From the NCBI GenBank assembly GCA_031254105.1, contig JAIRVB010000042.1, positions 1-38,175 on the forward strand: a stretch of DNA of 38,175 bases. Reading direction: 5' to 3'. The position numbers were made by a program, and so were the translations under genes. A model generated the notes under the pieces. The model was not told the DNA's origin. It ran no database searches and saw only the letters and a program-made list of their open reading frames with translations. Positions 18,333 to 38,175 of the stretch are shown one piece after another (the stretch's first letter is position 1; each line of letters opens with the position of its first letter). The stretch comes from Chitinispirillales bacterium (lineage in GTDB: Bacteria > Fibrobacterota > Chitinivibrionia > Chitinivibrionales > Chitinispirillaceae).

Positions 18333-18664
18333 TTCAGGCGCTCTTCAGTTTAAACATAAATATAATGTACGCTGTATTGATATCATGTTTTTTTGTTTAA
18401 TAACCGGAATATATGCTAAAGTTTGCCGGTGAATATAATCAGGGCAATTTGCGTTTTTATATCAAATACAAATTTCTACAGGTAAACAAAATTTTTTGAT
18501 CTCAGTTGAAGTCAGTAAAAAGTCAAAAAACAGATTCACTTCACATTAATTTTGGTATACCTCTTGCTCCATTAAATTACCCAAAAGAGATGTTCTTAAA
18601 AATGAGAAACTCTTGTTTATCGCAACTAATGTTTTTTTGAGTTTATAGGGGAGCATACGCTTTT

Positions 18665-25982: not shown

Positions 25983-26448
25983 TCCCTCCCAAATTCATAT
26001 AAGCCCTTAAAGGGCGCCATCCCCAAGCCCCCGTGCTTTAAGCGCGGGGGGAAGTAGGATACATGCACAAGAACACCGTGTGATAAAACACAATGGGGAT
26101 GGAATACATATGTAAGAATGATGAAAATTTATACGAATTATAAAACAATAAGGGGAAACGCCGGTTTCATAGACTTAACGGAATTTGAACAGAGAATGGT
26201 TCCGGTTATACTGAACTCGGTAAAGTAAATTTAATATTATCCCGCTATTCGGGGTCGCCACAGAAAATGGAAATTTTAGTACGCTAAGCCCAAAAAAGTG
26301 GTCATTGCAGCTTAAATCAGCTTTTTTGCAATAAAATCAGCTTAAACCGGAATGCTTTTCAAGTATTTTGCAAACGGTTTTTTCATAGTTATTATCTGTT
26401 TTTTTCCATTTGTTTCATTTGCAAGATACCCGTTTCGCGCAAGACTCA

Positions 26449-26640
26449 TCACTTCCGTGTAGTCTGGCTGAAATCGGGAGATATTTCAAGAATGTCTATA
26501 TCTGAAGTAGCTCTTGATATGCTCCCCCTGAGCAACAAAGCGGAAGCCCCTGAAATTGCGATGTGAAGCGGTTTTTCAAGCTCCGCGTCTATTTCGTGAA
26601 GCATTTTTAGCATCTCTTCTTTGTGCATAATCATTCTCAT
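26449..26640 (-). pseudogene. truncated minimal nucleotidyltransferase (MNT / MntA-like, Pol-beta superfamily) fragment
   Basis: The core motif IAISGASALLLRGSISRATSDIDIL resembles hGS-x10-SDIDL. The ORF stops about 15 aa after the DxD motif, and no HepT-like partner ORF is adjacent. Confidence 0.3.
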
Positions 26641-26865
26641 ATTATCTGAATAAAAGATAATAAATTGAAAGGGAGAGAATCAAGACGGGGAAATAGTATC
26701 AAATTAAATCGGGTTGCGGCATCTCTAAAAAAGTAAAAACTGACTTGAAAACAAACCAACTCAAATCAGATTAGTTTGAGAAAAATGTGTACGGCGCCAG
26801 TTTGTGAAATGTCGTGAACCATTATGTATTTTAGTAACTTAGCGACATCATAGCGACGTCGTTTT

Positions 26866-26892
26866 GTAACCCGTTGGTTTGCAACGGGTTAC
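26866..26892. terminator. perfect 11-bp stem / 5-nt loop hairpin (GTAACCCGTTG-GTTTG-CAACGGGTTAC) downstream of thpR; there is no U-tract
   Basis: It is visible in the sequence about 55 nt after the thpR stop (minus strand). Confidence 0.25.
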
Positions 26893-26945
26893 GGCCATAA
26901 GCAACTATTTCTGCATTAATATCTTTTTCAAGTTGAATGACTATA

Positions 26946-27485
26946 TCATTCCGATAATTTATACTCAGCCTCTCTGATGTGCAGCGCTCCCTCGCGTTTA
27001 AGAATGCTTGAGTATAGAGAAAACTGCGTCACTAAAAACGGTTTTGTTTGAAAGAGTGAGTTTGCGCAAAGGAAGCCGGCAATTTTTTGAGGCGGGGAAC
27101 CGTTAAGACGCGCAACTGTAATATGCGGCGAAAACTTCCTTTCCTCATGAGGTAATCCCGCTGACAGAACAGCGCGTTCCACCCGTTTTTGCAACCTTAT
27201 AACATTCTCATTTGCCGCTATCCCGCACCACAGAATCCGCGGCTCTTTTCTGGGCGGGAAGAATCCGACAGATTTGAGCCGCATGGTGAACGGTTCAAAT
27301 TTTATAGTTCGCAGGGCGTTATCAATTTCAGAAGCTGTATCTTCAGTTACATCTCCAATAAAACGCAGAGTCAGGTGCAGCTGGCTTTCGGGCGTCCATT
27401 TTGCGCCCGGAATCGCTTCGTAGATTTCGCTTACATCATCGCGGGCGCTCTCAGGCAGGTCGATAGCCGCAAAGAGGCGCGTCAT
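26946..27485 (-). CDS. thpR: RNA 2',3'-cyclic phosphodiesterase (2H phosphoesterase, LigT/ThpR)
   Basis: Two H-x-T/S-x motifs are present (HLTLRFIG and HITVARL). Length is 179 aa. Confidence 0.8.
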   Translation of the reverse strand: MTRLFAAIDLPESARDDVSEIYEAIPGAKWTPESQLHLTLRFIGDVTEDTASEIDNALRTIKFEPFTMRLKSVGFFPPRKEPRILWCGIAANENVIRLQKRVERAVLSAGLPHEERKFSPHITVARLNGSPPQKIAGFLCANSLFQTKPFLVTQFSLYSSILKREGALHIREAEYKLSE

Positions 27486-27491
27486 AAACCG

Positions 27492-27638
27492 CTATTTTTT
27501 ACCGTAAAGATCGGTGATAAACTTTTCGGCGATCAGTGTGGCGAAGTTAGCGGTTTTTTCTATTTTCAGCAGCAGCAGGCATAGCATTAAAAGAAAAGCG
27601 ATAATGATAATTGACAAAAACAGAAAAATTACAGTCAT
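27492..27638 (-). CDS. possible small hydrophobic protein (48 aa) between tsaD and thpR
   Basis: Minus-strand ORF MTVIFLFLSIIIIAFLLMLCLLLLKIEKTANFATLIAEKFITDLYGKK ends 6 nt before the thpR start. Identified by manual translation; it is not in the ORF track. Confidence 0.25.
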   Translation of the reverse strand: MTVIFLFLSIIIIAFLLMLCLLLLKIEKTANFATLIAEKFITDLYGKK

Positions 27639-27673
27639 CTCTCTACTCCTTTGTACAGGCGCAGCCGCGCCTC

Positions 27674-28678
27674 TTACATATTTATGCCTCTGGCGGGATC
27701 CATATCCGGAAAACGTGTCCTGTTCGAGTTGTACATTTTAAGTCCCGCCATAGCGATCATCGCGCCGTTGTCGGTGCAAAGCGCCGGTGATGGGAAGAAC
27801 ACATTATCCGCGCCAAAACGCGTTTTCAGCTCCTCTCTGAGATATCCGTTGCATGCCACCCCGCCGGCTAAAGCGGCGGTTTTTATTCCGCAATTTTCCG
27901 AGGCGGCCCATAAGTTGTTTATCAGAGAGGTTGCGACCGCTTTTTGAAACGCCCGGCAGATCTGGGGACGGTTCTCTTTAATATACTGCCCGGTATTTGT
28001 TAAAATGAAATTTTTTACAGCTGTTTTTAATCCGGAGAAGCTGAAATCAAGCGTTTTTTGCGATGAAAAACGGGCTACCGGAAAAGTTATTTTTTCCGTT
28101 TCTTTAAAGCCGCTTACTTTTGAAGCCTCCTCCTCTATAGCGCGTCCGGCAGGGTAGGGGAAACCGAGCAGTTTACCTACTTTGTCAAAAGCTTCTCCCG
28201 CCGCGTCATCAACGGTTTGGCCAAGACAGCGGCAGTTTCCGGACTGTTCATACCTGTAGATAGCGGTATGCCCTCCGGAAGCAAGCAGAACTAAAAATGG
28301 CGCCTCAATATTTTTATGTTCGATAAACAGGGAGCAGATGTGGCCTTCAAGGTGATTTACGCCTGTTATTGGTATACCGTAAGCCGTATGCAGCCCAAGA
28401 GCAAAGCTAACGCCTACAAGAAGCGCCCCCGCAAGCCCCGGACTGTCGGTCACCGCTATAAGGTCGAGGCTGCGCGCAGCAAGGCCGCATTCATCAAGAA
28501 CTCTTTTGGTAAGGATATCGATTTTTTCCAAGTGAGCGCGCGAAGCTACTTCAGGTACAACGCCGCCGTAAAGCGAGTGCTCATCTTGCGAATGCGTACG
28601 GCTTGAAAGCACGCAGCCGTCTTTAAGAACCGCGACAGATGTTTCATCACAGGAAGATTCTATACCAAGAACAATCAT
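27674..28678 (-). CDS. tsaD: tRNA N6-adenosine threonylcarbamoyltransferase
   Basis: MIVLGIESSCDETSVAV starts an ASKHA fold. HLEGH and GGVACN motifs are present. Length is 334 aa. Confidence 0.9.
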   Translation of the reverse strand: MIVLGIESSCDETSVAVLKDGCVLSSRTHSQDEHSLYGGVVPEVASRAHLEKIDILTKRVLDECGLAARSLDLIAVTDSPGLAGALLVGVSFALGLHTAYGIPITGVNHLEGHICSLFIEHKNIEAPFLVLLASGGHTAIYRYEQSGNCRCLGQTVDDAAGEAFDKVGKLLGFPYPAGRAIEEEASKVSGFKETEKITFPVARFSSQKTLDFSFSGLKTAVKNFILTNTGQYIKENRPQICRAFQKAVATSLINNLWAASENCGIKTAALAGGVACNGYLREELKTRFGADNVFFPSPALCTDNGAMIAMAGLKMYNSNRTRFPDMDPARGINM

Positions 28679-28696
28679 TTTTAATTAGTTGTCAGC

Positions 28697-28774
28697 GGTT
28701 AATGGTCAGTAAGGTACCCTGAGAAAGTTTTTAGTTGTCAAGTAGCAGTTTTTGTCTTTTACTGACCACTAACC
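28697..28774. repeat. inverted repeat (16-nt arms GGTTAATGGTCAGTAA / TTACTGACCACTAACC, 1 mismatch) with a 46-nt spacer containing direct repeats AGTTTTTAG / AGTTTTTGT
   Basis: It is visible in the sequence between the XRE gene end and the tsaD start. Confidence 0.5.
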
Positions 28775-28810
28775 ACTTTCTTAGTACTATTAAATATATT
28801 TCATGCCGGG

Positions 28811-29314
28811 CTATTTGGAGGGATTATCAGATCCATTTAAAATCTCGTTTATAATTTCATCTTCCGGCCGTATATCTTTTATCTTTTCTATTAAGGGTTT
28901 TATTATCTCTTTGGTCAGTGTGTATGAATTGTCAACACGTGTTTTGTCAAGGATAAAGGAATCTTTTCCTTTGCCTACAAGATAGTAACCTGAATATGAT
29001 CCATCGTTTCTCTTAACTATTTTTAATTCCGCGTAACCGTAAATATCGGTCAAAATAGCTATAAAGCTGTCAACGATACTCACATCCCTTTGCATGTTGG
29101 GAAATTTAACATCCCAAAGTTCATTTCCCATTAATTTAAACGGCGTTGTTTCCAGTACTTCAGCCATTTTTTCTATAACCTCTAATGGCGGAACAATTTT
29201 ACCGGATTCATATCTTTGAATCGTGTGCACGGTTTTTCCCAACGCCGCCGAAAGTTCAGCTTGTGTAAAATTTTTCTCGTTGCGGGCTTTTCTGATGCTT
29301 TCCCCAATAGACAA
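28811..29314 (-). CDS. XRE-family HTH transcriptional regulator (repressor-like) with an unknown C-terminal domain
   Basis: The N-terminal HTH is IRKARNEKNFTQAELSAALGKTVHTIQRYESGK. The gene is divergent from a Cro-like gene. The C-terminal domain is not an S24 peptidase. Confidence 0.75.
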   Translation of the reverse strand: MSIGESIRKARNEKNFTQAELSAALGKTVHTIQRYESGKIVPPLEVIEKMAEVLETTPFKLMGNELWDVKFPNMQRDVSIVDSFIAILTDIYGYAELKIVKRNDGSYSGYYLVGKGKDSFILDKTRVDNSYTLTKEIIKPLIEKIKDIRPEDEIINEILNGSDNPSK

Positions 29315-29385
29315 AAAGTATCCCCTTTTCAGTAAGAATCCGTTAATATAATTGAAGAATCAAAATGGAAAATTAGAATTTTTCC

Positions 29386-29414
29386 TTGACACAGCGTTAT
29401 AAGTAATATATATT
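29386..29414 (+). promoter_or_regulatory. near-consensus sigma70-type promoter (TTGACA-17 nt-TATATT) in the XRE/Cro switch region
   Basis: TTGACA lies at 29386-29391 and TATATT at 29409-29414, with 17-nt spacing. Confidence 0.3.
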
Positions 29415-29463
29415 ACAAAGCATGTATTTTAAAGTTGTAAATTAAAGAAAAAAGAGAAGAAAA

Positions 29464-29607
29464 ATGAAGTTAAAACCCGATAATTTACTGTTAGGCACAG
29501 CCGCGAAGATGACGGCAGCGTCCAATTTACGGCTCTGCTCTTGCAGTAAATCAGTAAATTTACAATTTAAAGGTTTATCAGCAGCCGGTCATGCAGTTAA
29601 ATAAGCT
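29464..29607 (+). CDS. possible small ORF (47 aa) inside the switch region
   Basis: Manual translation gives MKLKPDNLLLGTAAKMTAASNLRLCSCSKSVNLQFKGLSAAGHAVK, preceded by a purine-rich tract. It overlaps the GTAAATTTAC palindromes. This is a weak call. Confidence 0.2.
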
Positions 29608-29894
29608 GCGTGTTTGTTAATATCTTTTTGTAAGCTATCGCTATTTAAAGAAGCTGGAAGAGTGTAGATTTTCTCTGTAAATTTATCCTCAATCAACCAA
29701 ACAGACTCGAAAATAAAATGTCTTAATGCGGAAATGGAAAACACTTAAATAATAAAACAGAAAAATCTTAAGTATATTTATTTCTGCATTGACAGGCAAA
29801 ATTACAAAAATCATCTATACGCTCAACCGAAACCTTGGCTTAAACTATTCCGGCCTTCCGGAAGATAAAAATGTAACGGCAATGAGGAGAGTTT

Positions 29895-30242
29895 ATGAGC
29901 GCTAATGAACGAATCAAAGAATTGAGAAAATCTCTCGGATTAACACAAGCGGAATTCGGGCGCAAAGTTGGAATCGTGCAGGGACATATAACAGGAATCG
30001 AAAGCGGGAGTAGACCCATAACAGAAAAAACGGTAAAGGTAATCAGCGTGGTTTATGGAGTATCGGAAAGCTGGCTCAAAACAGGTAAAGGCAATATGTA
30101 CAGTAAAAACAGAAACCGTGATAAGGTGATCCGGCAATTTAACGAACTAAATCCCCTGTATCAGGATTTTATATTAAGTCAGTTTGAATGGTTTTTAGAG
30201 CTGCAGCGTAATATTACGCGAGAAAACCGCTCCCGCGTGTAA
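29895..30242 (+). CDS. Cro/C1-type (XRE) HTH DNA-binding protein
   Basis: The HTH is IKELRKSLGLTQAEFGRKVGIVQGHITGIESG. The gene is 115 aa and divergent from the XRE repressor. Confidence 0.75.
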   Translation: MSANERIKELRKSLGLTQAEFGRKVGIVQGHITGIESGSRPITEKTVKVISVVYGVSESWLKTGKGNMYSKNRNRDKVIRQFNELNPLYQDFILSQFEWFLELQRNITRENRSRV

Positions 30243-30371
30243 TGTAAGAGGTTTCGGATAATAGTTATATAATAAACGCGTTACGTCAAAATAAATACTA
30301 CTAAAGTTTCCTACTTACGCTATATTTGTACTCTCACTTAACCCATGTTACACGTTTTGTCAAAAAAAACA

Positions 30372-30400
30372 TTGACATTTTAGGGAAATTTTATTATTAT
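30372..30400 (+). promoter_or_regulatory. near-consensus sigma70 promoter (TTGACA-17 nt-TATTAT) about 500 nt upstream of the first tail-cluster gene
   Basis: TTGACA lies at 30372-30377 and TATTAT at 30395-30400. The leader contains a GAAA-tetraloop hairpin (GCGCGCGAAAGCGCG, about 30625-30639) and other stem-loops. Confidence 0.4.
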
Positions 30401-30899
30401 ATTAATCGGTGATACGCTCTTTACGTAACTCTAAGAGAGTACGAAAATCACTTCCTCTGCCTTTTGTGCGCCGCACACATACTGGGCAATGGGGAAAATG
30501 CGCTGGGATCAAATTATACAATCTTGCCTGATTTTTCCAGACAGCGTGCAAAGAGTTAAAAGAACAGCCGTTTTGGCGCTTTAGCAGTCAAAACGGAAAG
30601 AAACTTTTAGTTGAAGGAGAAGCGCGCGAAAGCGCGTATCCTGTCAATTGCTTTTTACCGCTTAAGCATGAATAAGTTTTTGCGTGAGTCTATATTACAG
30701 CAGGCCCGTACAGAACGACGCAGCGTTGTCTAAACGGTAAAAGATGTATTCGTTGGCAGCATTTTGCTGCGGATTAAAAAAGCTTTAAAGCGTTAATTTT
30801 TTCGGCTTTCACCGGCCAACCATTATAACCTGATACAGAACGCAGTGGCAGTCTCTGTACATAAGATGTGAAACATACCTTTACAGGGGAGTTGTATTC

Positions 30900-31397
30900 A
30901 TGAGTGATTCGCTTATTGCCAAAATAGAAAGCCGAATTCTGGAGTTGATTGGAAACATTAACGAAGGAGGCGGATATAATTACAACTGGGAAAAAAGAGC
31001 TGCCGTGAATATGGTTTTCTCGGACGGTACGATGTTTCCCGGCGCAGGAATAGATTTAGTTGAAGAAAAAAATATTGATGAAGCTGAGAATGAAAACGTT
31101 GCAGGCCCGACAGGAGCCAATGCCTGCGCTTACTATAATGTCCTTGATTACTGCATAAGTATCGGCGGAAAGTATAATGGCAAGTCTCCTGAAAGAGGGC
31201 AGCTCTTTAAAGCGCTTGACGATTTGAAAAAAGTGTTCGGAATCAACTACACGCTTGGGGATTCGGGGGCGTCAATCGTTATGTACAGGGGTTTCGAGTT
31301 AGTTAATGATGAAAATGGTTTATTGACAATTAAAAGCAGCTGGCTTGTCAGGTATTACCAGAGCCGTACGGAACCGGGCGATACCGCTGAAATTTGA
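30900..31397 (+). CDS. hypothetical protein, first gene of the tail module (possible tail terminator/completion protein)
   Basis: The 165-aa protein is co-directional and tightly linked to downstream tail genes. No recognisable motif was found. Confidence 0.3.
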   Translation: MSDSLIAKIESRILELIGNINEGGGYNYNWEKRAAVNMVFSDGTMFPGAGIDLVEEKNIDEAENENVAGPTGANACAYYNVLDYCISIGGKYNGKSPERGQLFKALDDLKKVFGINYTLGDSGASIVMYRGFELVNDENGLLTIKSSWLVRYYQSRTEPGDTAEI

Positions 31398-31454
31398 TTA
31401 TGAATATATATCACAATTAATTACCTCACCTTTTCTATAATGGAGGAAAGATAA

Positions 31455-32537
31455 ATGAGTTCGTATTATTCAAGTAACCTCAGGATATTGGTTGCGAAAA
31501 TTGAAAAAGCGCCGGGTACGGCGGTGAGTAAATTCGACAACGAGGACTTTAATGTAAGGATAATTGACCCCGTTGTAACACCCATGATCGAAACAGACAA
31601 CGAAGCCAGCAAGTACGCCACCGGAGACCATGGCGAAGATGAGTCCATAATGGGAGCGCAAAGCGCAACGATTGAGTTTTCTGTTAAAATGTCCTCATGT
31701 CCAGGTGATAATGTAAGCAAACCGGCGTGGTGGAAATTTGCGGAAGCTTGCGGGTGTAAAGTAAAGAAGTATGAGGCAAAAGATGCTTCTCCGGCCGGGT
31801 ACGCTCTTCAGCCCAAAAAATCTGAAGATGTTTCAACTATGACAATCAGAGTCTACGATTTTCCCAGGGGCTCAAAAACTCCGGCCGCCTGCTATACCTT
31901 TGCCGGCTGTATGGGTAATATGACGATGGGAGCCGAAGGAGTTGGAAAACCCTGGACAGCCGCTTTCTCATTTACCGGTAAATTGGTGAGTATAGACGAA
32001 CCAGAGGATAATTTTGTTCCCGAGTTGTTAATCACAGACAAAACGATTGCGGAGAAAATGTTAAATTATGATCTGTCTTTTGATGGAATAGGTGAAGCGG
32101 ATAAAAGCGTCTCCCAAAAAATCAGTTCCTTTCTCCTTGACATTGGAAACGAAATCTCTCCGCTTATAGATCAGGCCGACCCCACTGGTTACGCTTATTA
32201 CGCCGTCACTAAAAGAAGTCCTAGATTATCCTGTGATCCTTTGTTAAATGGCAAATTCGCGGATATGTACGGCAGCTGGAAAAATGAGAAAACATTTTCC
32301 GTAACTTTGAGTCCTGTTTCCGCAAGCGCTAACGGTACTGCCGGATTTACCCTTTATTTGCCAAAAGCGCAAGCGCTTACAGCCGCAATCGTAAGCCGTG
32401 AAGGTTTGGTAAACTGGGAACTGAACCTCAAAGCCCTGCGTAATAACGGCGCTGAAAAGATCAGAGACCAGGAAGTAACATGGGAACTGCTTGTTGGGAA
32501 AAAATCCATAGAAGTAGAAACAGAAGAGGATAACTAA
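31455..32537 (+). CDS. putative major tail (tube) protein of a non-contractile tail
   Basis: The 360-aa gene sits immediately upstream of the chaperone G/G-T pair, the conserved position of the major tail protein. It is too large for a myovirus tube. Confidence 0.35.
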   Translation: MSSYYSSNLRILVAKIEKAPGTAVSKFDNEDFNVRIIDPVVTPMIETDNEASKYATGDHGEDESIMGAQSATIEFSVKMSSCPGDNVSKPAWWKFAEACGCKVKKYEAKDASPAGYALQPKKSEDVSTMTIRVYDFPRGSKTPAACYTFAGCMGNMTMGAEGVGKPWTAAFSFTGKLVSIDEPEDNFVPELLITDKTIAEKMLNYDLSFDGIGEADKSVSQKISSFLLDIGNEISPLIDQADPTGYAYYAVTKRSPRLSCDPLLNGKFADMYGSWKNEKTFSVTLSPVSASANGTAGFTLYLPKAQALTAAIVSREGLVNWELNLKALRNNGAEKIRDQEVTWELLVGKKSIEVETEEDN

Positions 32538-32554
32538 AAAAGGTTGGCCAGAAG

Positions 32555-33001
32555 ATGGAAAAACGCATGTTGACAGAAGATGTAAAGCGGGAACTTTTGG
32601 GACTTATCCCATTTTCGGCGGGCAGTACAGATGATTTTACGCCGCCCGCGTTTTTGAAGATGAACTCTGAAGGCAAACACATAATTCCCGAAGAGTTCCG
32701 GCCTGTTTTTAAGATTCGCAGCTTTACGGTTGAAGAGAAGCGCGGCGTAGCTAAAATGCTCATCAAAATTAAAGAGGCTGAAGAGGACGCTGTTACCGAA
32801 GCGACCCGTAAAATAGTTACAGGCTGGAAAAACCTGTTCGACGCGGGGACAGGCGCGGAGATCGCCTTTACGGGCGCTCCCGACGGCGGCGCTGATCCTG
32901 TTCTGTTTTCGCAGATCCCCGCCGCTGTCGCGGGAGCGATTCTGTTTCACGGGGCAAGAATATCGGGAGTTCTGGCGGCTGAGAAGTTAAGTTTAAAATA
33001 A
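32555..33001 (+). CDS. phage tail assembly chaperone (lambda gpG-like)
   Basis: The 148-aa acidic protein lies directly upstream of the tape measure. It ends at a slippery heptamer, and the -1 frame is open. Confidence 0.55.
   Translation: MEKRMLTEDVKRELLGLIPFSAGSTDDFTPPAFLKMNSEGKHIIPEEFRPVFKIRSFTVEEKRGVAKMLIKIKEAEEDAVTEATRKIVTGWKNLFDAGTGAEIAFTGAPDGGADPVLFSQIPAAVAGAILFHGARISGVLAAEKLSLK
32992..32998 (+). other. programmed -1 ribosomal frameshift site U_UUA_AAA (X_XXY_YYZ) fusing 32555..32998 to 32998..33402 (G-T product of about 282 aa)
   Basis: TTTAAAA sits in phase with the 0-frame codons agt-TTA-AAA-taa. The -1 frame opens only 10 nt upstream (after TGA at 32980-32982) and continues to 33402. 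Confidence 0.55.
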
Positions 33002-33042
33002 TCGCCGCGGCACATGCCGGACAGCTTCCGTTTAACTGTCAG

Positions 33043-33402
33043 GTGTGCCGGGATGAGCCTCAGATGAGGGAGTCCTGGGGGTGTGACAAACCGGCCCCTG
33101 CCGCGGTTTGGGAAGACCCGGAATTGGGTGAGTTTTTCAACTGTCCGCTTAAGTTTATTTCTGAGACGGTTGTAGACTGGTATGAGGAGTATTCATATAA
33201 TCAGGACTTCAGCGCCGCCGCGCCGGCGTTTCTTAAGCAGAGCGCCAAGTTTGCAGAGGCTTGCCGTCTTTACAAAACAGCGTTCAATGAGTATTTAGCA
33301 AAAGCGTCCAAAAAAAAGACAGCTAAACAGGATGGTTTACAAATTTTAAAGGAACGTTTTCATGGCTCAAGAGATAAAAACAGTAGTAGCGCAGTTGATT
33401 GA
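33043..33402 (+). CDS. T-portion of the tail assembly chaperone G-T frameshift product (annotated from its internal Met; likely expressed only as a fusion)
   Basis: It is in the -1 frame relative to 32555..33001 and overlaps the tape-measure start by 41 nt. Confidence 0.5.
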   Translation: MCRDEPQMRESWGCDKPAPAAVWEDPELGEFFNCPLKFISETVVDWYEEYSYNQDFSAAAPAFLKQSAKFAEACRLYKTAFNEYLAKASKKKTAKQDGLQILKERFHGSRDKNSSSAVD

Positions 33403-34459
33403 TGAGGCGTCTCCCGCCGCCGCGAAGATGCAGGCCGCCTTTGAGAGCAGTATGGATAAGATAACCGGTTCCGTTGACAGCGTCAGCGAGTCTTTTAAAA
33501 GTCTTGACTTTAATACTGCCGGTATTGATACCGCAGTATCCTCGCTTCAGAATCTTGCTGGCAGCGTTTTTAACGTCGGTGATAGTTTTGCCGTTCTTGA
33601 AAGCGTTTCCGTACTTCAGGATATTATTGATGGCGGGGTTGAAGCAGGAAATGTTCTTACGCTGCTTTCCGGGATCGCGGCGGATACCGGCAGCTCCTAC
33701 ATGGAAATGGGCTTGCGGACAGTTGAATCTCTTACTGAAATCATGGGAAACTCAGAGGAGATTCTTGGGAGCATAGGCGATTATTTCGGTCAATTTAAAG
33801 AAGACGCTCTCAGCGGAGCGGTTGGCTTTGCCTCCGCTGTAAGCGACATCGGCGCCAAGCTTACGGCGCAAGCAAAAAGTCAGGTTGAGGCGCAGCGCAA
33901 GGCTGATATAGAGAAAGTCAAGCACAGCGCTATGAACGAAGAGGAGAAAGCAAAAGCCATAGCTGAGATTGACAAAAAGGCGGAAGCTGAAAAGAAAAAG
34001 ATAGCGCAGGCGGAAAAAGCTATGGCTATTACAAAAGCTGTTATCAACTCCGGACTTGCGGTAGTCAACGCTCTTGCAACACCGCCCTTTCCGGTGGGTC
34101 TTGCCATGTCCGCAGTCGCGGCTGCCCAGGGCGCCGCACAGGTTGCGGCTATCTCCTCCCAGTCATTCGCGCAGGGCGGAATTGTTGGCGGTACAAGCTA
34201 TACAGGAGATAATGTCGCCGCAAGAGTCAACAGCGGCGAGATGGTGCTTACACGCGGACAGCAGTCTCAGCTCTTTGCGATGGCTAATGGCGGGGGCGGC
34301 GGCGGGAACACAATCTCAATGGGCGGCGATACTATCGTAATAAACGGAAACGCTGATCAGGATGCGGTCGATCAAATAAGACAGACTAAACAGGAGCAGA
34401 TGGAACAGATGAAAGACCTGCTCAAAGAGATGAAGTATCACGGCCAGCTGGAGCTTTAA
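33362..34459 (+). CDS. tail tape measure protein (short, 365 aa)
   Basis: A coiled-coil K/E/A-rich stretch (KAIAEIDKKAEAEKKKIAQAEKAMA) is followed by hydrophobic A/G-rich segments and a Gly-rich run. The position after G/G-T fits. Confidence 0.55.
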   Translation: MAQEIKTVVAQLIDEASPAAAKMQAAFESSMDKITGSVDSVSESFKSLDFNTAGIDTAVSSLQNLAGSVFNVGDSFAVLESVSVLQDIIDGGVEAGNVLTLLSGIAADTGSSYMEMGLRTVESLTEIMGNSEEILGSIGDYFGQFKEDALSGAVGFASAVSDIGAKLTAQAKSQVEAQRKADIEKVKHSAMNEEEKAKAIAEIDKKAEAEKKKIAQAEKAMAITKAVINSGLAVVNALATPPFPVGLAMSAVAAAQGAAQVAAISSQSFAQGGIVGGTSYTGDNVAARVNSGEMVLTRGQQSQLFAMANGGGGGGNTISMGGDTIVINGNADQDAVDQIRQTKQEQMEQMKDLLKEMKYHGQLEL

Positions 34460-34462
34460 TTT

Positions 34463-35308
34463 ATGATTATCTCATCAAATGATTTTGAAAGCTTTGAGTT
34501 TAAGATACTGCCAGGTTTTAAGCCCGTTACCAAACCCGCTTTAAAGTGGAAACAGCTTGCTAACGGCAGTAATATTGTTATTGACAGATTAGCCGCAAGC
34601 GACATTTACGAAGCCGATGTTTCACTTTATGGAAGAGAAGATGAGATTGACAAACTAATAGGCGCGCTTGAAAAAAACAGGCGTTCCGTAAAATCAGCCC
34701 CAAACACGTTTTGGCTGGCGGGATTTAACAACGCCGAGAAAATTTTTGGCGCTGAGATCGACTATTCCATTTCCATTAAAGCTATGGTAACAAAGTTTGG
34801 GAGCAAAGAACAAAAATCGCTGCGGGGATTTTCGGTAAAGCTTACCCTTAGAGCGCTTAACCTTCGTAAACGCACCGGTATTACAGCACAATTCCCCCAA
34901 ATCAACAACCTCTGTGAAAATCCCGGCGCGGCGGCTTTTTTAGCGGTCGGATTTACGGCGGATTCCGTTATTGATATGAGAAGAGGAGATTCCTACACAG
35001 GGGTCCCCAATTTTTCAGACACGCGGGCCGACAGCGGTTTTTTTGAGGGAACATTTACGCTTAAGACAGATGATATGGCAGCCTTGCGCCTCTTTTTACT
35101 CGAAGAGAACAGAGGCGGGATAATCACGCGCAATTCTAAAGAGGGTAAGATAATAAACAGTATTCCAGGAGTGCAAAATATTTTCGGCGTTCGCCGGACT
35201 CAACCTCAATCAGGTTTTAACGTAAGAATAACCGAGTGGACTGATATGGGCATGAAAAGTCTTGATTTCTGGCGGATAAAAATGAAAATAGCCGAGGAAA
35301 CGGTTTAG
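34463..35308 (+). CDS. putative distal tail (Dit-like) / baseplate hub protein
   Basis: The 281-aa gene starts 3 nt after the tape-measure stop. The assignment is positional. Confidence 0.35.
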   Translation: MIISSNDFESFEFKILPGFKPVTKPALKWKQLANGSNIVIDRLAASDIYEADVSLYGREDEIDKLIGALEKNRRSVKSAPNTFWLAGFNNAEKIFGAEIDYSISIKAMVTKFGSKEQKSLRGFSVKLTLRALNLRKRTGITAQFPQINNLCENPGAAAFLAVGFTADSVIDMRRGDSYTGVPNFSDTRADSGFFEGTFTLKTDDMAALRLFLLEENRGGIITRNSKEGKIINSIPGVQNIFGVRRTQPQSGFNVRITEWTDMGMKSLDFWRIKMKIAEETV

Positions 35309-35354
35309 TTGATAATGCTTAATAATACAGAAATAGAACAATAGGAAACTGAAT

Positions 35355-36296
35355 ATGGCTGAAAAATTGGTAGGAGCGGGGCAGCAGTTCAATACTGTCT
35401 TAGCCGCGGTTAACAGTTCCTCAGACGGAGATACTGTTACCATAACCGACAGCGGGACATACGCCGAGCGGCTTGATATGATCTCTCTGACAGGTATCAC
35501 TCTAAGAAGTACAGGCAATGATCCCGACGCTTTCCCTGTTGTAAAACTGTACCTTGACTCAAATACCCTCAACCATATTAATAACTGGGTATTCAGCTCA
35601 TTGATATTTGAACCTAACGGAGATTCCCGCTTCACCTTCAATCTCCAGAACATCTCTTTTAACCGCTGCGTTTTCCGAAAATACGACTATCTTTTCGGCT
35701 GCGATTATACAAACAACGGCGTCAAAAAAATCGAAAGCTGCCTCTTTTATGATATCAGCGATTATGTTTTTTTCGCGCGTAAGAATTTTCACGCCAACGC
35801 GTTGCTTGTGAAAAACTGCACCTTTCACAATTGCGCCAATATTTTTAAAGACGATTTTTGGAACGTAGAAGCCGCTAAAGAACCAAAAGTCAATAATTGC
35901 GTATTTACCGCGTGTCCGAATATCGCTTCTCAGGTTGAAGACAGCGCCCCGCCTTACGGACGGCGCAGCGGACTGTTTCAGCAGTTTAAATACTGCACGT
36001 TTTCAAACGATCCCCAAACCGCAAACGCGAAATTTGGCGAAAGCTGTCTTGTAAACAAAAACGAATCGGATATTTATTCGCGCAGCGGCAGCGGAACGCT
36101 GCCAAGTCATTTTAAGATAACGGATAATCCGTCCGTGTATAAATCGGGCTCCGGTTCTTTAGGATACAGCCCCGATCTTGGCGGTTTCACACGAACTTCG
36201 CCTTATGACCGTGGAGCGTGGGAGTGTGACGGCCAGCCGTCGATAGTTGAAACGAAAATGATATTACCTTATATAAATTATCAAGGAGCTTTCTGA
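35355..36296 (+). CDS. right-handed parallel beta-helix repeat protein (tail spike/fibre or tail-associated depolymerase-like)
   Basis: Repeated N-C-x-F / asparagine-ladder motifs are present (NRCVFRKY, NCTFHNCAN, NNCVFTACPN). Length is 313 aa. Confidence 0.45.
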   Translation: MAEKLVGAGQQFNTVLAAVNSSSDGDTVTITDSGTYAERLDMISLTGITLRSTGNDPDAFPVVKLYLDSNTLNHINNWVFSSLIFEPNGDSRFTFNLQNISFNRCVFRKYDYLFGCDYTNNGVKKIESCLFYDISDYVFFARKNFHANALLVKNCTFHNCANIFKDDFWNVEAAKEPKVNNCVFTACPNIASQVEDSAPPYGRRSGLFQQFKYCTFSNDPQTANAKFGESCLVNKNESDIYSRSGSGTLPSHFKITDNPSVYKSGSGSLGYSPDLGGFTRTSPYDRGAWECDGQPSIVETKMILPYINYQGAF

Positions 36297-37045
36297 TGGC
36301 TATTAGAAATCAAGAACTTACCGTTAATTTTTTAGTATGGGACACAGAAAACAATTGCGGAAAAACCGGCGATGCCGCCAACATTACGTTAAAAATCATA
36401 AAAGACGGCGCTGTGTTTAATGTAAACGCTGGCAGGGTTACTGAGGTAAGCGCGGCAAATACGCCGGGAATCTATCAGATCATTCTTACCGCAAGTGAGA
36501 TGGATGCAAATTTTATATGCGTCTCCGGCGTCTCCTCAAGTAACAAAGTGGTTGTCTATCCCGCGTTTATACAGACGGAAAGCGGGGAGCTGGTTGAGAT
36601 TAAAAATATGCTTCATCAGATAAAAAACATTATGCCGGGCGGCACATCCAACCAATTTGCGACTAAGCAGGATGTAGAAAACGCGGTGAATATGATACTC
36701 TCTCAGGTAAGCGAATGTAAATGCGCGACAGAAAATGTCGAGAGTAATGTTAACGCAATGTTTCAGGGCGGCGTCATTATAAAAAATACATTTAAAAGTG
36801 ATTTTGAAAATTGGGTCTCAGACGGCGTAAAGCAAACAAGGTTTAACGAACTTACTGATTTACCAACGAAAGACCCTACTTTAGAACAGGCAATAATGCT
36901 TTCGTATATGAAAGCGAGAAATAAAACTGTAAATAATGAAAGAGAGCTGGTAATTTACAGATGCGGGGAGAGTAAGGCGGTTTTTAAAGCGGAACTTTCG
37001 GATAATGGCAGTGTGTTTACTAAAAGTGAGCTGAAAAACACTTAA
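36296..37045 (+). CDS. hypothetical tail/baseplate-associated protein
   Basis: The 249-aa gene overlaps the upstream gene as TGATG (translationally coupled). Confidence 0.3.
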   Translation: MAIRNQELTVNFLVWDTENNCGKTGDAANITLKIIKDGAVFNVNAGRVTEVSAANTPGIYQIILTASEMDANFICVSGVSSSNKVVVYPAFIQTESGELVEIKNMLHQIKNIMPGGTSNQFATKQDVENAVNMILSQVSECKCATENVESNVNAMFQGGVIIKNTFKSDFENWVSDGVKQTRFNELTDLPTKDPTLEQAIMLSYMKARNKTVNNERELVIYRCGESKAVFKAELSDNGSVFTKSELKNT

Positions 37046-37095
37046 CCCCGGTTGTCTAAATTGTACGTTGGTTTCTTTTCAAAAGGCTGCTTATT

Positions 37096-37935
37096 ATGAC
37101 TTCAGAATTAAATGACCGTCAAAAAAGAATGCGCGCGTTAAACGCGGTTCTTGACCCAATACCATTGTATCCAATTCCATGTGAGGAAGGATGCGCGGCA
37201 GACCGCGCTCATATTGCGGGCTTTTATTATCCGCTTGAGGATCTCCCGCGTAATTACGCTATTTATTACGCTGTCGAGCTTACCCCACATCAATATATGA
37301 CAGATGAAAGTGTAATCCCGGCACAATCGCCGCCGCTGTCTGAAAATAAAAATATCGGTCTCAAAAATGGCGTCTTCCGCTGGATTACAGGTACGCCCGG
37401 CTTTGACGGCGATAACAACGGCGCGAAAATGGAGAACGAAACTCCCAATCCTTTTAAATGGTACGAAGGTATTCTCATAAAAGATGGAATGTATAACCCA
37501 AACCGCAAAATAGATATTAAAGAATTGGGAGATTATGCCACTCTTAACGGATTTAATTTTTCAGTACGAAATGACCTTGCTTTTTGGAAAATAATTGAAG
37601 ATGAGAAAATATATATAGCAAATTACCAGGTAAGGGTATTTGTGGTACTTGACAAAACTTTTTATAATTTATGGGAGGGAGTTGTAAAATCCATATCGCA
37701 TACAGAAACGGAATATGAGTTTAAGTGCGAAACCGATTTTAAAGTGATACATAAAGCGTTCCCGCAGCGGCTTGTAACAGAAGAACTCTTTGGAGATAGC
37801 GTAAATAAAGATTCCATTGGGCAGGCGGTCCCGGTGTGCTTGGGAGATGCGCCTTATGCGGAAGGGTTGAATGTATCGAATGTGGTTAAGCCTGTAATGT
37901 TTAAGATAAAAAAAGCAAATGTTGTTAGCGGGTAG
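37096..37935 (+). CDS. hypothetical tail fibre/baseplate protein
   Basis: The 279-aa gene is co-directional in the tail module. No motif was recognised. Confidence 0.3.
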   Translation: MTSELNDRQKRMRALNAVLDPIPLYPIPCEEGCAADRAHIAGFYYPLEDLPRNYAIYYAVELTPHQYMTDESVIPAQSPPLSENKNIGLKNGVFRWITGTPGFDGDNNGAKMENETPNPFKWYEGILIKDGMYNPNRKIDIKELGDYATLNGFNFSVRNDLAFWKIIEDEKIYIANYQVRVFVVLDKTFYNLWEGVVKSISHTETEYEFKCETDFKVIHKAFPQRLVTEELFGDSVNKDSIGQAVPVCLGDAPYAEGLNVSNVVKPVMFKIKKANVVSG

Positions 37936-38157
37936 TTACGATAATAAAGGCCAAACGTTTAAAACCAATGGGTGATCATAGCTTTTCATTTAAAACTCGA
38001 AAAGGATTTTACATAGTAGAAGCTGTATTGCATGGTAAATCAGGAGAGGCAACTAAACTTAGTGAAAAGGTATTTGTACGGTAATGGTATATAACAAAAT
38101 AGGATACTGACCAAAAAATATAATGAAAATAAACTTTAACTGAAGGAGAGATTTAAA

Positions 38158-38175
38158 ATGAAAAAGGCAATAACT
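38158..38175 (+). CDS. 5' end of a further gene (MKKAIT...) continuing beyond the window
   Basis: An AGGAGAG RBS sits 8 nt upstream of ATG 38158. The module continues past the window end. Confidence 0.3.

What the first reader, a model, noticed from the sequence alone, without database searches (positions are those of the whole stretch)
28811..38175. Head-less phage tail module under an XRE/Cro switch: candidate F-type-like tailocin or defective prophage
A divergent XRE repressor / Cro-like pair is followed directly by at least nine co-directional, tightly packed and overlapping genes. Their order matches a siphovirus tail: major tail protein, G/G-T chaperones, tape measure, distal tail, beta-helix spike and fibres. 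No integrase, replication, antiterminator, terminase, portal or capsid genes separate the switch from the tail genes. Temperate phages normally place replication and packaging/head genes between cro and the tail genes. The layout is more like tailocin loci such as F-type pyocins, where a repressor/activator pair controls tail-only structural genes.
Basis: partly seen in the sequence, partly recalled or inferred. Interest (0 to 1): 0.75.

Follow-up and report, generated by a model that had tools for sequence, protein, structure and literature searches.

The report
Head-less phage tail gene cluster
This stretch of a Chitinispirillales chromosome holds phage tail genes with no head, packaging or replication genes. 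It belongs to a conserved family of such clusters that probably build tail-only killing particles, but this copy has lost most of its tip gene.

Summary
Two divergent XRE-type regulators (28811-29314 minus strand, 29895-30242 plus strand) are followed, after a 657-nt leader, by nine co-directional genes (30900-37935). These are a terminator-position protein, a T5 pb6-type fused-duplicate tail tube, a G/GT chaperone pair with a conserved -1 slippery heptamer, a short 365-aa tape measure, a Dit-position protein, a probable beta-helix protein, a 249-aa protein and a tip protein.

No head, terminase, integrase or replication gene lies in the 28.8 kb upstream, which is ordinary host chromosome.

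Eight or nine related metagenomic loci share this head-less layout. One lies on an 87-kb contig with host genes within 10 kb on both sides. On a tube-protein tree the head-less loci form one clade, sister to complete siphophages. All five sequenced tape measures in the clade are about half the phage length. Gene-wise dN/dS is 0.09-0.28.

This supports a domesticated F-type tailocin-like family of independent origin. No lysis cassette, particles or killing are shown.

The window copy carries a deletion of about 4.2 kb. It truncates the >1180-aa tip gene to 279 aa, and the contig ends 240 nt later. This copy may therefore be defective. The XRE "switch" is adjacency only, because relatives carry other regulators.

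The parts
28811..29314 (-). XRE-family HTH regulator, 167 aa: N-terminal HTH_3 plus a ~100-aa C-terminal domain of unknown family, with no S24 peptidase domain
   Evidence: Pfam HTH_3 5e-15. PHROG repressor/regulator families phrog_8, phrog_3 and phrog_4. NCBIfam RstR-like hit below cutoff. No homologue next to any related tail locus.
29315..29894 (.). Divergent intergenic region. It holds a sigma-70-like site at 29386-29414 (+, 11/12 match), a 46-codon ORF at 29464-29604 and a terminator-like hairpin at 29590-29612
   Evidence: (the number of promoter-like sites is not above the shuffled expectation). Function not tested.
29895..30242 (+). Second XRE-family HTH protein, 115 aa (Cro-like by position)
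   Evidence: Pfam HTH_3 3e-13; phrog_8 6e-18.
30243..30899 (+). 657-nt non-coding leader with a near-consensus promoter-like site, TTGACA-17-TATTAT, at 30372-30400
   Evidence: No open frame longer than 49 codons on the + strand. The motif ATACGCTC follows both TTGACA boxes, at 29801-29824 and 30396-30419; with two copies only, this may be chance.
30900..31397 (+). 165-aa protein at the tail-terminator position; first gene of the module in every head-less locus
   Evidence: Homologues at 46-58% in head-less loci, and at 32-35% in complete phages, where the gene lies between the head-tail connector genes and the tube gene. No Pfam, PHROG, NCBIfam or PDB-sequence hit. The role is inferred from position.
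31455..32537 (+). Major tail tube protein, 360 aa, fused tandem-duplicate type (T5 pb6 / P74-26 / SH-Ab15497)
   Evidence: AlphaFold pLDDT 82.8, pTM 0.83. Foldseek PDB hits 8xan_A 5e-11, 9iny_A 2.5e-10, 8ed0_A 1.5e-9, all full-length alignments with TM 0.6-0.74. Some homologues carry PF18906.
32555..33001 (+). Tail assembly chaperone, G-like, 148 aa
   Evidence: Position, and 67-76% identity across head-less loci. Weak phrog_313 tail assembly chaperone hit, E 0.023.
32992..32998 (+). -1 programmed frameshift site, T_TTA_AAA, one codon before the G stop
   Evidence: Read from the sequence. A canonical X_XXY_YYZ heptamer sits at the same place in 10 loci (TTTAAAA, GGGTTTA or GGGTTTG), followed by the conserved -1-frame peptide F-K/R/V-I-I/L-A-A-A/V-H.
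32998..33402 (+). T-like extension in the -1 frame, listed as ORF 33043-33402; gives a G-T fusion of about 281 aa
   Evidence: tblastn homology from phage loci starts at 32998-33031, upstream of the GTG at 33043. 62-85% identity in head-less loci.
33362..34459 (+). Tape measure protein, 365 aa, about half the length of those of the phage relatives
   Evidence: phrog_3336 2e-16 and phrog_24676 4e-13. The alignment shows the conserved C-terminal core retained, with ~250-470 N-terminal and middle residues of the 611- and 825-aa phage proteins absent.
34463..35308 (+). 281-aa protein at the distal-tail (Dit) position
   Evidence: Homologue directly after the tape measure in complete phages L003, L004 and L022 (31-33% identity). 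No family or PDB-sequence hit. Fold not tested.
35355..36296 (+). 313-aa probable right-handed beta-helix protein with six invariant cysteines; specific to the head-less clade
   Evidence: 57-62% identity in 4 loci. Only 18 representatives among 1.84 billion proteins. The distant ones carry Beta_helix, NosD or Pectinesterase domains. No PDB-sequence or phage-database hit.
36296..37045 (+). 249-aa protein of unknown role (conserved N-terminal ~100 aa and C-terminal ~60 aa, variable middle)
   Evidence: 43-48% identity in 4 head-less loci. No family hit.
37096..37935 (+). Truncated tip/hub protein: 279 aa, matching only the N-terminal ~265 aa of a protein that is 1182-1362 aa in relatives
   Evidence: 50-65% identity to residues 1-265 of the large proteins of L015, L002, L016 and L017. 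Relatives are full length. The same truncated ORF is present in a second assembly (L001), which ends 59 nt past the stop. A low-confidence model of a full-length relative gave siphophage tip/hub proteins as best hits.
37947..38081 (+). Remnant (~45 codons, no usable start) of the C-terminal sorting-domain end of a secreted BNR/Glug protein. Marks a deletion of about 4.2 kb
   Evidence: tblastn/blastp: 41-54% identity to the last ~45-50 aa of L018 472/473-aa and L020 226/449-aa proteins; blastn 81-83% over 53 nt. In L018 the 473-aa BNR gene directly follows the 1256-aa gene.
38158..38175 (+). Start of a further ORF (MKKAIT...) with a GGAG ribosome-binding site, cut by the contig end
   Evidence: Sequence. 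The start resembles the signal-peptide starts of the BNR/Glug genes in relatives. Six residues are too few to test.

Best explanation
The region is a chromosomal, head-less, non-contractile (siphovirus-type) tail gene cluster. It belongs to a family that arose by a single loss of the head and packaging genes from a siphophage lineage and has since been kept under selection in Chitinispirillales-type bacteria. It is most likely an F-type tailocin-like particle of independent origin.

Proposed working:
1. A promoter in the 657-nt leader, possibly gated by the neighbouring XRE pair, drives the operon.
2. The tape measure, with the G and G-T chaperones (G-T made by -1 frameshifting at T_TTA_AAA), nucleates on a tip complex made of the 281-aa, 313-aa and 249-aa proteins and the large tip protein.
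3. The fused-duplicate tube protein polymerises as pseudo-hexameric trimer rings. The 365-aa tape measure would set a length of roughly 55 nm, at ~0.15 nm per residue (textbook rule, my knowledge).
4. The 165-aa protein caps the tube.
5. Released particles bind a neighbour through the distal proteins and kill by membrane perforation.

Shown: gene identities for the tube, tape measure and frameshift site; head-lessness; clade structure; purifying selection; the deletion.
Inferred: assembly order, length, release, killing and regulation.

The window copy has lost about 4.2 kb. That removed ~1000 aa of the tip/central-fibre protein and most of the following secreted BNR gene. This copy probably makes no particle, or a particle without its normal distal end.
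For: Tail identity: tube fold, tape measure, conserved frameshift site.

Head-lessness:
- No phage head, terminase, portal or integrase similarity anywhere in the window by tblastn with the proteins of complete relatives.
- The upstream 28.8 kb is host chromosome: tsaD, LigT, PreP, GlgE, gltX, rsmB, fmt.

Family:
- L002/L018 is on an 87-kb contig. Host genes lie within 10 kb on both sides and no head genes are present.
- L015, L007, L009, L012 and L017/L021 all start at the terminator-position gene, after 106-685 nt of non-coding, mostly AT-rich DNA.
- L020, L021, L024 and L026 show no head genes downstream.
- Complete phages L003, L004 and L022 carry terL, portal, scaffold, capsid and connector genes directly upstream of the same six-gene block.
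- In a neighbour-joining tube tree all head-less loci form one clade.
- Tape measures are 328-365 aa in the five head-less loci where the gene is complete, against 611-825 aa in the phages.
- dN/dS is 0.09-0.28, with dS saturated, for all seven genes tested.
- IMG/VR holds only the head-bearing relatives.
Against: - No holin, endolysin or spanin was recognised in the window or in the complete L018 locus. A GH25 endolysin-like gene lies near L021, but on the opposite strand, 4.6 kb past the large gene.
- No particle, induction or killing data exist.
- The window copy is truncated by a deletion and by the contig end.
- Roles of the 165-, 281-, 313- and 249-aa proteins rest on position or weak hits.
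- Head genes elsewhere in the genome cannot be excluded for a MAG.
- The tree has no support values.
- The dN/dS values cover the whole divergence, not only the time since the heads were lost.
Confidence: 0.6

Rival explanations
1. Inert prophage remnant. The cluster, at least the window copy and possibly the whole family, is what is left of a decaying siphophage prophage and makes nothing useful.
For: - The window's tip gene is truncated to 279 aa and is followed by a gene fragment.
- A second deletion variant exists elsewhere: P0072 fuses the first 117 aa of a tube protein to a BNR protein.
- L018 has a fibre-gene remnant interrupted by a PDDEXK_2 gene.
- No lysis genes were found.
Against: - The same head-less boundary occurs in at least 7 loci, which form one clade with 48-73% tube identity.
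- All eight upstream ORFs are intact, and the frameshift heptamer is conserved.
- dN/dS is 0.09-0.28.
- There are no residual head, integrase or replication fragments.
Confidence: 0.2
2. Split system. The tail cluster works with head and packaging genes encoded elsewhere in the genome or on a helper phage (GTA-like, or a tail-donating satellite).
For: - MAG contigs cannot show the rest of the genome.
- Among the weak fold hits to the large protein is an RcGTA particle protein (6tba_7A).
- Short tails are typical of GTAs (my knowledge).
Against: - No head-tail connector or tail-completion genes are retained; the module starts at the terminator-position gene.
- There are no head genes within 10 kb either side in L018 or within 28.8 kb upstream in the window.
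- There are no integrase, primase or packaging-redirecting genes of the kind satellites carry.
Confidence: 0.07
3. A tail-like particle with a use other than killing bacteria (adhesion, delivery, or interaction with the gut host or protists). This might be tied to the secreted BNR/Glug surface proteins always encoded beside the tip gene.
For: - One to three Sec-signal, sorting-domain-like BNR/Glug genes flank or follow the tip gene in L018, L020, L021, L024, L026 and L015, and one remnant lies in the window.
- There is no lysis cassette.
- An UpxY-like antiterminator, a regulator type typical of surface-structure operons, lies upstream in L002 and L009.
Against: No non-contractile tail-like particle with such a role is known to me. 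All characterised head-less siphovirus-type tails (F-pyocins, monocins, efagins) inhibit bacteria (preprints 10.64898/2026.02.24.707460 and 10.64898/2025.12.13.693970).
Confidence: 0.1

Closest known systems
F-type pyocins of Pseudomonas aeruginosa (lambda-like, PA0633-PA0648)
   Same: Chromosomal head-less cluster with terminator cap, tube, G/GT chaperones, tape measure, tip proteins, a long central fibre protein and variable distal genes at the 3' end. Flanked by host genes. A regulator gene pair lies nearby (layout as described in 10.64898/2026.02.24.707460).
   Different: - No sequence homology was detected.
- The tube is a 360-aa fused duplicate of the T5 pb6 / P74-26 type, not a single-domain gpV-like protein.
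- The tape measure is only 365 aa.
- No lysis cassette was found.
- The regulators are XRE proteins or an UpxY-like antiterminator, not PrtN/PrtR.
- Secreted BNR/Glug genes are interleaved.
- The host phylum is Fibrobacterota.
Monocins (Listeria) and efagins (Enterococcus), F-type particles of independent origin
   Same: Head-less siphovirus-type tail clusters that arose separately from different phage lineages. Deletion variants occur among strains (10.64898/2025.12.13.693970).
   Different: - Those are TP901-1-like, with single-domain tubes. The monocin tube MttP matches only half of this protein, at E 1e-3.
- They come from Gram-positive hosts.
- They carry holin/endolysin genes.
- Their tails are about 160 nm, against a predicted ~55 nm here.
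Tail tube proteins of phage T5 (pb6), Thermus phage P74-26 and Acinetobacter phage SH-Ab15497
   Same: Same predicted fold: two tube domains in one chain, aligned over the full length (Foldseek E 5e-11 to 1e-9, TM 0.6-0.74). In the solved structures this gives trimeric rings.
   Different: - 11-14% sequence identity.
- Those proteins belong to complete virions with long tails.
- There is no tblastn match in 50,697 phage records.
Uncultured siphophages L003, L004/L023 and L022 (metagenomic and IMG/VR contigs)
   Same: Homologous six-gene block: terminator-position gene, tube, G, T, tape measure and Dit-position gene, at 29-48% identity, with the same frameshift site.
   Different: - They carry terminase, portal, scaffold, capsid and connector genes directly upstream.
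- Their tape measures are 611-825 aa.
- Their distal tail genes are different, including a collagen-like repeat protein.

Membership tests
F-type tailocin (functional class) | Non-contractile siphovirus-type tail genes: tube without sheath, G/GT chaperones, tape measure, tip proteins | tested here: met
   Tube fold, frameshift site, tape measure. None of the nine ORFs has a sheath-like hit.
F-type tailocin (functional class) | No capsid, portal, terminase, replication or integrase genes in the locus | tested here: met
   None in the window upstream of the cluster or inside it. The window's downstream side cannot be seen. The complete relative L018 has host genes within 10 kb on both sides.
F-type tailocin (functional class) | Own lysis cassette (holin/endolysin, plus spanin in diderms) for release | tested here: inconclusive
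   None recognised in the window or in L018. GH25 endolysin-like genes lie near L021 on the opposite strand. The window is cut at 38175.
F-type tailocin (functional class) | Dedicated, stress-responsive regulator controlling the cluster | tested here: inconclusive
   The XRE pair is adjacent but not conserved in relatives, which carry an UpxY-like gene or ParA plus RHH. There is no LexA/S24 domain. Control was not tested.
F-type tailocin (functional class) | Production of head-less particles that kill related strains | not testable with these tools
   Needs induction or expression, electron microscopy and spot assays.
F-pyocin / monocin protein families (homology) | Sequence or fold homology of the tube to lambda gpV-like or TP901-1-like single-domain tube proteins | tested here: not met
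   The best matches are fused-duplicate tubes. Monocin MttP (8qhs, 9j1j) aligns to ~130-150 residues only, at E about 1e-3. This is therefore an independent lineage.
Fused-duplicate siphophage tube proteins (T5 pb6 type) | Two tandem tube domains in one polypeptide | tested here: met
   Full-length Foldseek alignments to 8xan, 9iny, 8ed0 and 5ngj, from a model with pLDDT 82.8.
Fused-duplicate siphophage tube proteins (T5 pb6 type) | Pfam PF18906 match | tested here: inconclusive
   Precomputed PF18906 on several homologues. The window protein itself has no Pfam hit at E <= 0.1.
Defective prophage | Fragments of other phage modules (integrase, replication, head) and disrupted genes | tested here: inconclusive
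   No fragments of head or other modules. However, the tip gene is truncated and followed by a gene remnant.
Defective prophage | Relaxed selection on the remaining genes | tested here: not met
   NG86 dN/dS 0.09-0.28 for seven genes, with dS saturated.
Gene transfer agent | Capsid, portal and terminase genes in the structural cluster | tested here: not met
   Absent.
R-type tailocin / contractile injection system | Sheath and contractile baseplate genes | tested here: not met
   No such ORF or hit. The gene order is siphovirus-like, with a tape measure and G/GT chaperones.

The most novel reading that the evidence does not exclude
These clusters would be the first F-type tailocin lineage known in Fibrobacterota. 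In this reading they were domesticated once from a siphophage with a T5 pb6-type trimeric tube, and afterwards their tape measure (and so the tail) was cut to about half. They have also become coupled to host-type parts: an UpxY-like antiterminator for operon read-through, and polymorphic secreted BNR/Glug surface proteins encoded beside the tip gene. Those surface proteins might act as self-protection or receptor masking, in the way Llp does for phage T5.
Probability: 0.3. Interest if true: 0.7.

Novelty: new variant of a known kind. Interest (0 to 1): 0.52.

Why it matters
F-type (non-contractile) tailocins are known from only a few lineages: F-pyocins, monocins and, recently, efagins. How they kill, and why they keep long tails, is still unresolved (10.64898/2026.02.24.707460; 10.64898/2025.12.13.693970).

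A separately domesticated family would offer three things:
- a different tube architecture;
- a tape measure about half the length of that of its phage relatives, which is a natural test of whether tail length matters once DNA delivery is no longer needed;
- a candidate competition weapon in an uncultured gut lineage.

The consistent pairing of the tip gene with secreted surface proteins could point to a self-protection mechanism.

For this window the practical message is more modest. The copy is truncated, so an intact relative such as the L018-type locus is the one to test.

Tried and rejected
- Extending the contig: the window is the whole 38175-bp contig. The only other assembly carrying its last gene (L001) ends 59 nt after the stop.
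- GTDB representative genomes: no relative of the tube was found.
- Cultured-phage records: no tblastn match for the tube or the 313-aa protein.
- Family and PDB-sequence searches: Pfam, PHROGs, NCBIfam and PDB-sequence profile searches of the 165-, 281-, 313- and 249-aa families gave nothing usable.
- Homologue search with the 279-aa protein: returned only itself.
- Structure of a full-length tip protein from an 8-sequence alignment: poor (pLDDT 47). I treat its fold hits to siphophage tip proteins as weak.
- Rfam scan of 26000-38175: only sub-threshold chance hits.
- Leader regions of the loci: no conserved element, except between L002 and L009.
- Rejected, complete prophage with unusual gene order: L018 shows host genes on both sides.
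- Rejected, contractile system: no sheath.
- Rejected, GTA: no head genes.
- Not tested: the folds of the 165-, 281-, 313- and 249-aa proteins. Structure jobs were limited to two, and homologues from loci could not be used for prediction.

Full report
**Source and setting.** The window is a complete 38175-bp contig of a metagenome-assembled genome labelled 'Chitinispirillales bacterium' (locus tags LBI42_12450 and LBI42_12485). Chitinispirillales MAGs have been recovered from higher-termite guts (PMC7024585). I could not verify that this MAG is one of them. Positions 1-28700 are ordinary chromosome:
- a DDE transposase at the left end;
- fmt, rsmB, gltX, an SPFH protein, a spermidine-synthase-like protein, a TPR protein, GlgE, a pseudouridine synthase, a PreP-type M16 peptidase, an LRR protein, LigT and tsaD;
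- one tRNA-Val.

None of these is phage-related.

**Observation.** Two XRE/HTH_3 proteins lie divergently at 28811-29314 (minus strand, 167 aa) and 29895-30242 (plus strand, 115 aa). After a 657-nt leader with no long open frame, nine co-directional ORFs run from 30900 to 37935. Gaps between them range from -41 to +57 nt. The leader contains a near-consensus TTGACA-17-TATTAT site at 30372-30400.

**What the genes are.**
- *360-aa protein (31455-32537).* It modelled well from a 29-sequence alignment (pLDDT 82.8). It aligns over its full length to the fused-duplicate tube proteins of Acinetobacter phage SH-Ab15497, T5 (pb6), DT57C and P74-26 (Foldseek E 5e-11 to 1e-9). Single-domain tubes such as monocin MttP, 80alpha and Hcp match only one half. 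It is a tail tube protein of the T5 type, in which three chains make a pseudo-hexameric ring in the solved structures.
- *148-aa ORF.* It ends with the heptamer T_TTA_AAA (32992-32998), one codon before its stop. A -1 slip there reads on into the 33043-33402 ORF. A canonical X_XXY_YYZ heptamer occupies the same place in all ten related loci examined, head-less and phage alike. It is followed by the conserved -1-frame peptide F-K/R/V-I-I/L-A-A-A/V-H. This is the G/G-T chaperone arrangement.
- *365-aa protein.* It matches tape-measure PHROGs (2e-16).
- *165-aa and 281-aa proteins.* They have no family hits. In complete phage relatives their homologues sit, respectively, between the connector genes and the tube gene, and directly after the tape measure. 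The terminator and Dit roles are inferred from position.
- *313-aa protein.* It is very rare, with 18 representatives among 1.84 billion proteins. Its remote relatives carry Beta_helix, NosD or Pectinesterase domains, so a right-handed beta-helix is plausible but not shown.
- *249-aa protein.* Unassigned.

**Relatives.** Homologues of the tube protein fall into two groups.
- *Complete siphophages.* Three (L003, L004 = L010 = L023, L022), at 44-46% identity, carry small and large terminase, portal, scaffold, capsid (PF25209) and four to six connector genes directly upstream of the same terminator-tube-G-T-tape measure-Dit block. Their tape measures are 611-825 aa.
- *Head-less loci at 57-73% identity.* L002 = L008 = L018, L015, L016, L017 (contained in L021), L007, L009 and L006. 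Wherever the upstream side is visible, the locus begins at the terminator-position gene after 106-447 nt of non-coding DNA.
- *L012.* At 48% identity it has the same head-less start, after 685 nt of non-coding DNA.
- *Upstream neighbours differ.* L002 has host AspRS and MacB genes, a secreted 1092-aa protein and an UpxY-like NusG paralogue. L009 also has the paralogue. L015 has ParA plus an RHH protein. L012 has a ferredoxin-like gene. The window has the XRE pair and tsaD.
- *Both flanks seen in L018.* The 87-kb contig of L018 shows both sides. After the distal tail genes come a radical-SAM gene, a RelB/YafQ pair, a PDDEXK_2 gene and host genes.
- *Downstream of the other loci.* L020, L021, L024 and L026 also show no head genes downstream.
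- *No head-gene remnants.* tblastn with the phage head proteins finds nothing in the window or in L018, L021, L015 or L020.
- *IMG/VR.* It contains only the head-bearing relatives.

**Evolutionary signal.**
- In a neighbour-joining tree of tube proteins, all head-less loci form one clade next to the phage clades (no support values). One loss of the head module is therefore the simplest history.
- Within that clade every ORF of the shared block is intact and the frameshift site is kept.
- NG86 dN/dS between the window and L002, L015, L006, L016 or L017 is 0.09-0.28 for all seven genes. dS is saturated.
- All five head-less loci in which the tape-measure gene is complete have proteins of 328-365 aa. 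They retain the conserved C-terminal core but lack 250-470 residues present in the phage proteins.
- At roughly 0.15 nm per residue (textbook rule, my knowledge) this predicts a tail of about 55 nm, against 90-125 nm for the phages.

This pattern fits a domesticated, selected tail-only element, not independent prophage decay.

**The window copy is damaged.**
- The ninth ORF (37096-37935, 279 aa) matches only the first ~265 residues of a protein that is 1182-1362 aa in L018, L020, L021, L024 and L026, and at least 512 aa in L015.
- Twelve nucleotides after its stop, 37947-38081 encodes, without a usable start, the last ~45 residues of a secreted BNR/Glug protein. Identity is 41-54% at protein level and 81-83% over 53 nt at DNA level.
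- In L018 a 473-aa BNR gene directly follows the 1256-aa gene. The window arrangement is what a deletion of about 4.2 kb would leave, running from codon ~270 of the tip gene to near the end of the BNR gene.
- A second assembly from another run (L001) has the same truncated ORF and ends 59 nt past its stop.
- A further ORF begins at 38158 and is cut by the contig end.
- A poor model of a full-length relative (pLDDT 47) still gave siphophage tip/hub proteins as best hits: JBD30 8rk3_O, RcGTA 6tba_7A, lambda gpL 8iyk_L and T1 9l9p_J. I use this only as weak support for a tip/central-fibre role.
- Another deletion variant exists elsewhere: P0072 fuses tube residues 1-117 to a BNR protein.

**Regulation and release.**
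- The XRE pair is adjacent but is not found in any relative. It has no S24 peptidase domain, and its control of the operon is untested.
- Relatives use different upstream genes, notably an UpxY-like antiterminator (E 6e-12, below the curated cutoff).
- No holin, endolysin or spanin was recognised in the window or in L018.
- L021 has GH25 endolysin-like genes nearby on the opposite strand.
- Release is therefore unexplained. This is the main gap in the tailocin reading.

**Comparison with known systems.**
- In layout and inferred working this resembles F-type tailocins: F-pyocins, monocins and efagins (10.64898/2026.02.24.707460; 10.64898/2025.12.13.693970).
- It is not homologous to them. The tube is the pb6 type, the tape measure is short, and the host is a different phylum.
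- The literature searches run returned no paper linking tailocins with Chitinispirillales or Fibrobacter.
- I class it as a new variant of a known kind, on in-silico evidence only.

**Verdict.**
'Head-less tail module' and 'tailocin-like family' are supported. 'Under an XRE/Cro switch' is not shown. The alternative 'defective' probably applies to this particular copy.
- Interest is moderate, at 0.52. The family is worth experimental follow-up, using an intact relative in place of this window.

Noticed in passing
L018 8473-9891 and 13768-15189; L020 2-682 and 4284-5633; L021 11335-12570; L024 4462-9090; L026 5990-7645; L015 8268-9260; window 37947-38081: In every head-less locus whose distal end is visible, the large tip gene is flanked or followed by one to three genes for BNR (PSII_BNR/Sortilin-like) or Glug proteins. 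Most have a clear Sec signal peptide and a conserved ~40-aa C-terminal tail with weak Por_Secre_tail hits; the L021 and L015 copies show these less clearly. Secreted proteins cannot be parts of a tail assembled in the cytoplasm, so their role is unexplained. Self-protection is one idea.
   Followed up: partly
L018 1244-1936 (= L002 8562-9254); L009 2-196: A 230-aa NusG-like protein (NGN plus KOW domains; UpxY-family match at 6e-12, below cutoff) sits directly upstream of the tail operon in two relatives. This suggests processive antitermination of the long operon. The window has no such gene.
   Followed up: partly
L018 16481-17638; L020 7230-8348: A radical-SAM protein with a C-terminal coiled coil is 84% identical between two loci whose tail proteins are only ~46% identical. 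In L018 it lies between a fibre-like gene and a fibre N-terminal remnant (18515-18685), with a RelB/YafQ pair and a PDDEXK_2 gene beside it. It could be cargo, a fibre-modifying enzyme, or conserved flank.
   Followed up: partly
P0072 (566 aa, 3510-bp contig): The protein fuses residues 1-117 of an L016-type tube protein to a signal-peptide BNR protein. It looks like a large deletion variant of another head-less locus, or an assembly or gene-calling artefact.
   Followed up: partly
L015 3-1276: A ParA-type ATPase and an RHH protein (a partition-cassette-like pair) lie directly upstream of the tail cluster. That copy may therefore sit on a plasmid or other replicon.
   Followed up: no
window 35355-36296: The 313-aa protein has six cysteines invariant in all five orthologues (C105, C116, C129, C155, C160, C182). 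It is the second most conserved protein of the cluster and belongs to a very rare family (18 representatives in 1.84 billion).
   Followed up: partly
window 29801-29824 and 30396-30419: The same ...ATACGCTC motif follows the two TTGACA boxes, upstream of the second XRE gene and in the tail-operon leader. It is a possible shared operator, or chance, since there are only two copies.
   Followed up: no
window 29386-29612: The XRE intergenic region holds a strong promoter-like site, a 46-codon ORF (29464-29604) and a terminator-like hairpin (29590-29612) on the + strand. This is a possible small transcript of unknown role.
   Followed up: no
window 63-1916 (-): A 617-aa DDE_Tnp_1 transposase lies at the left contig end, which is a likely reason the assembly breaks there.
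   Followed up: no
window 26449-26640 (-): A 63-aa ORF matches only the start of a DUF6036 nucleotidyltransferase (164-position model). It is probably a gene fragment, lying between the LRR gene and LigT.
   Followed up: no
L018 15307-16461; L020 5739-7211; L021 12627-13862: These proteins of 384-490 aa share only a conserved N-terminal ~50-200 aa (motif QQLGFER...GY.DS..YF) and differ in the rest. That is the pattern expected of exchangeable tail-fibre or receptor-binding proteins. The window ends before any such gene.
   Followed up: partly
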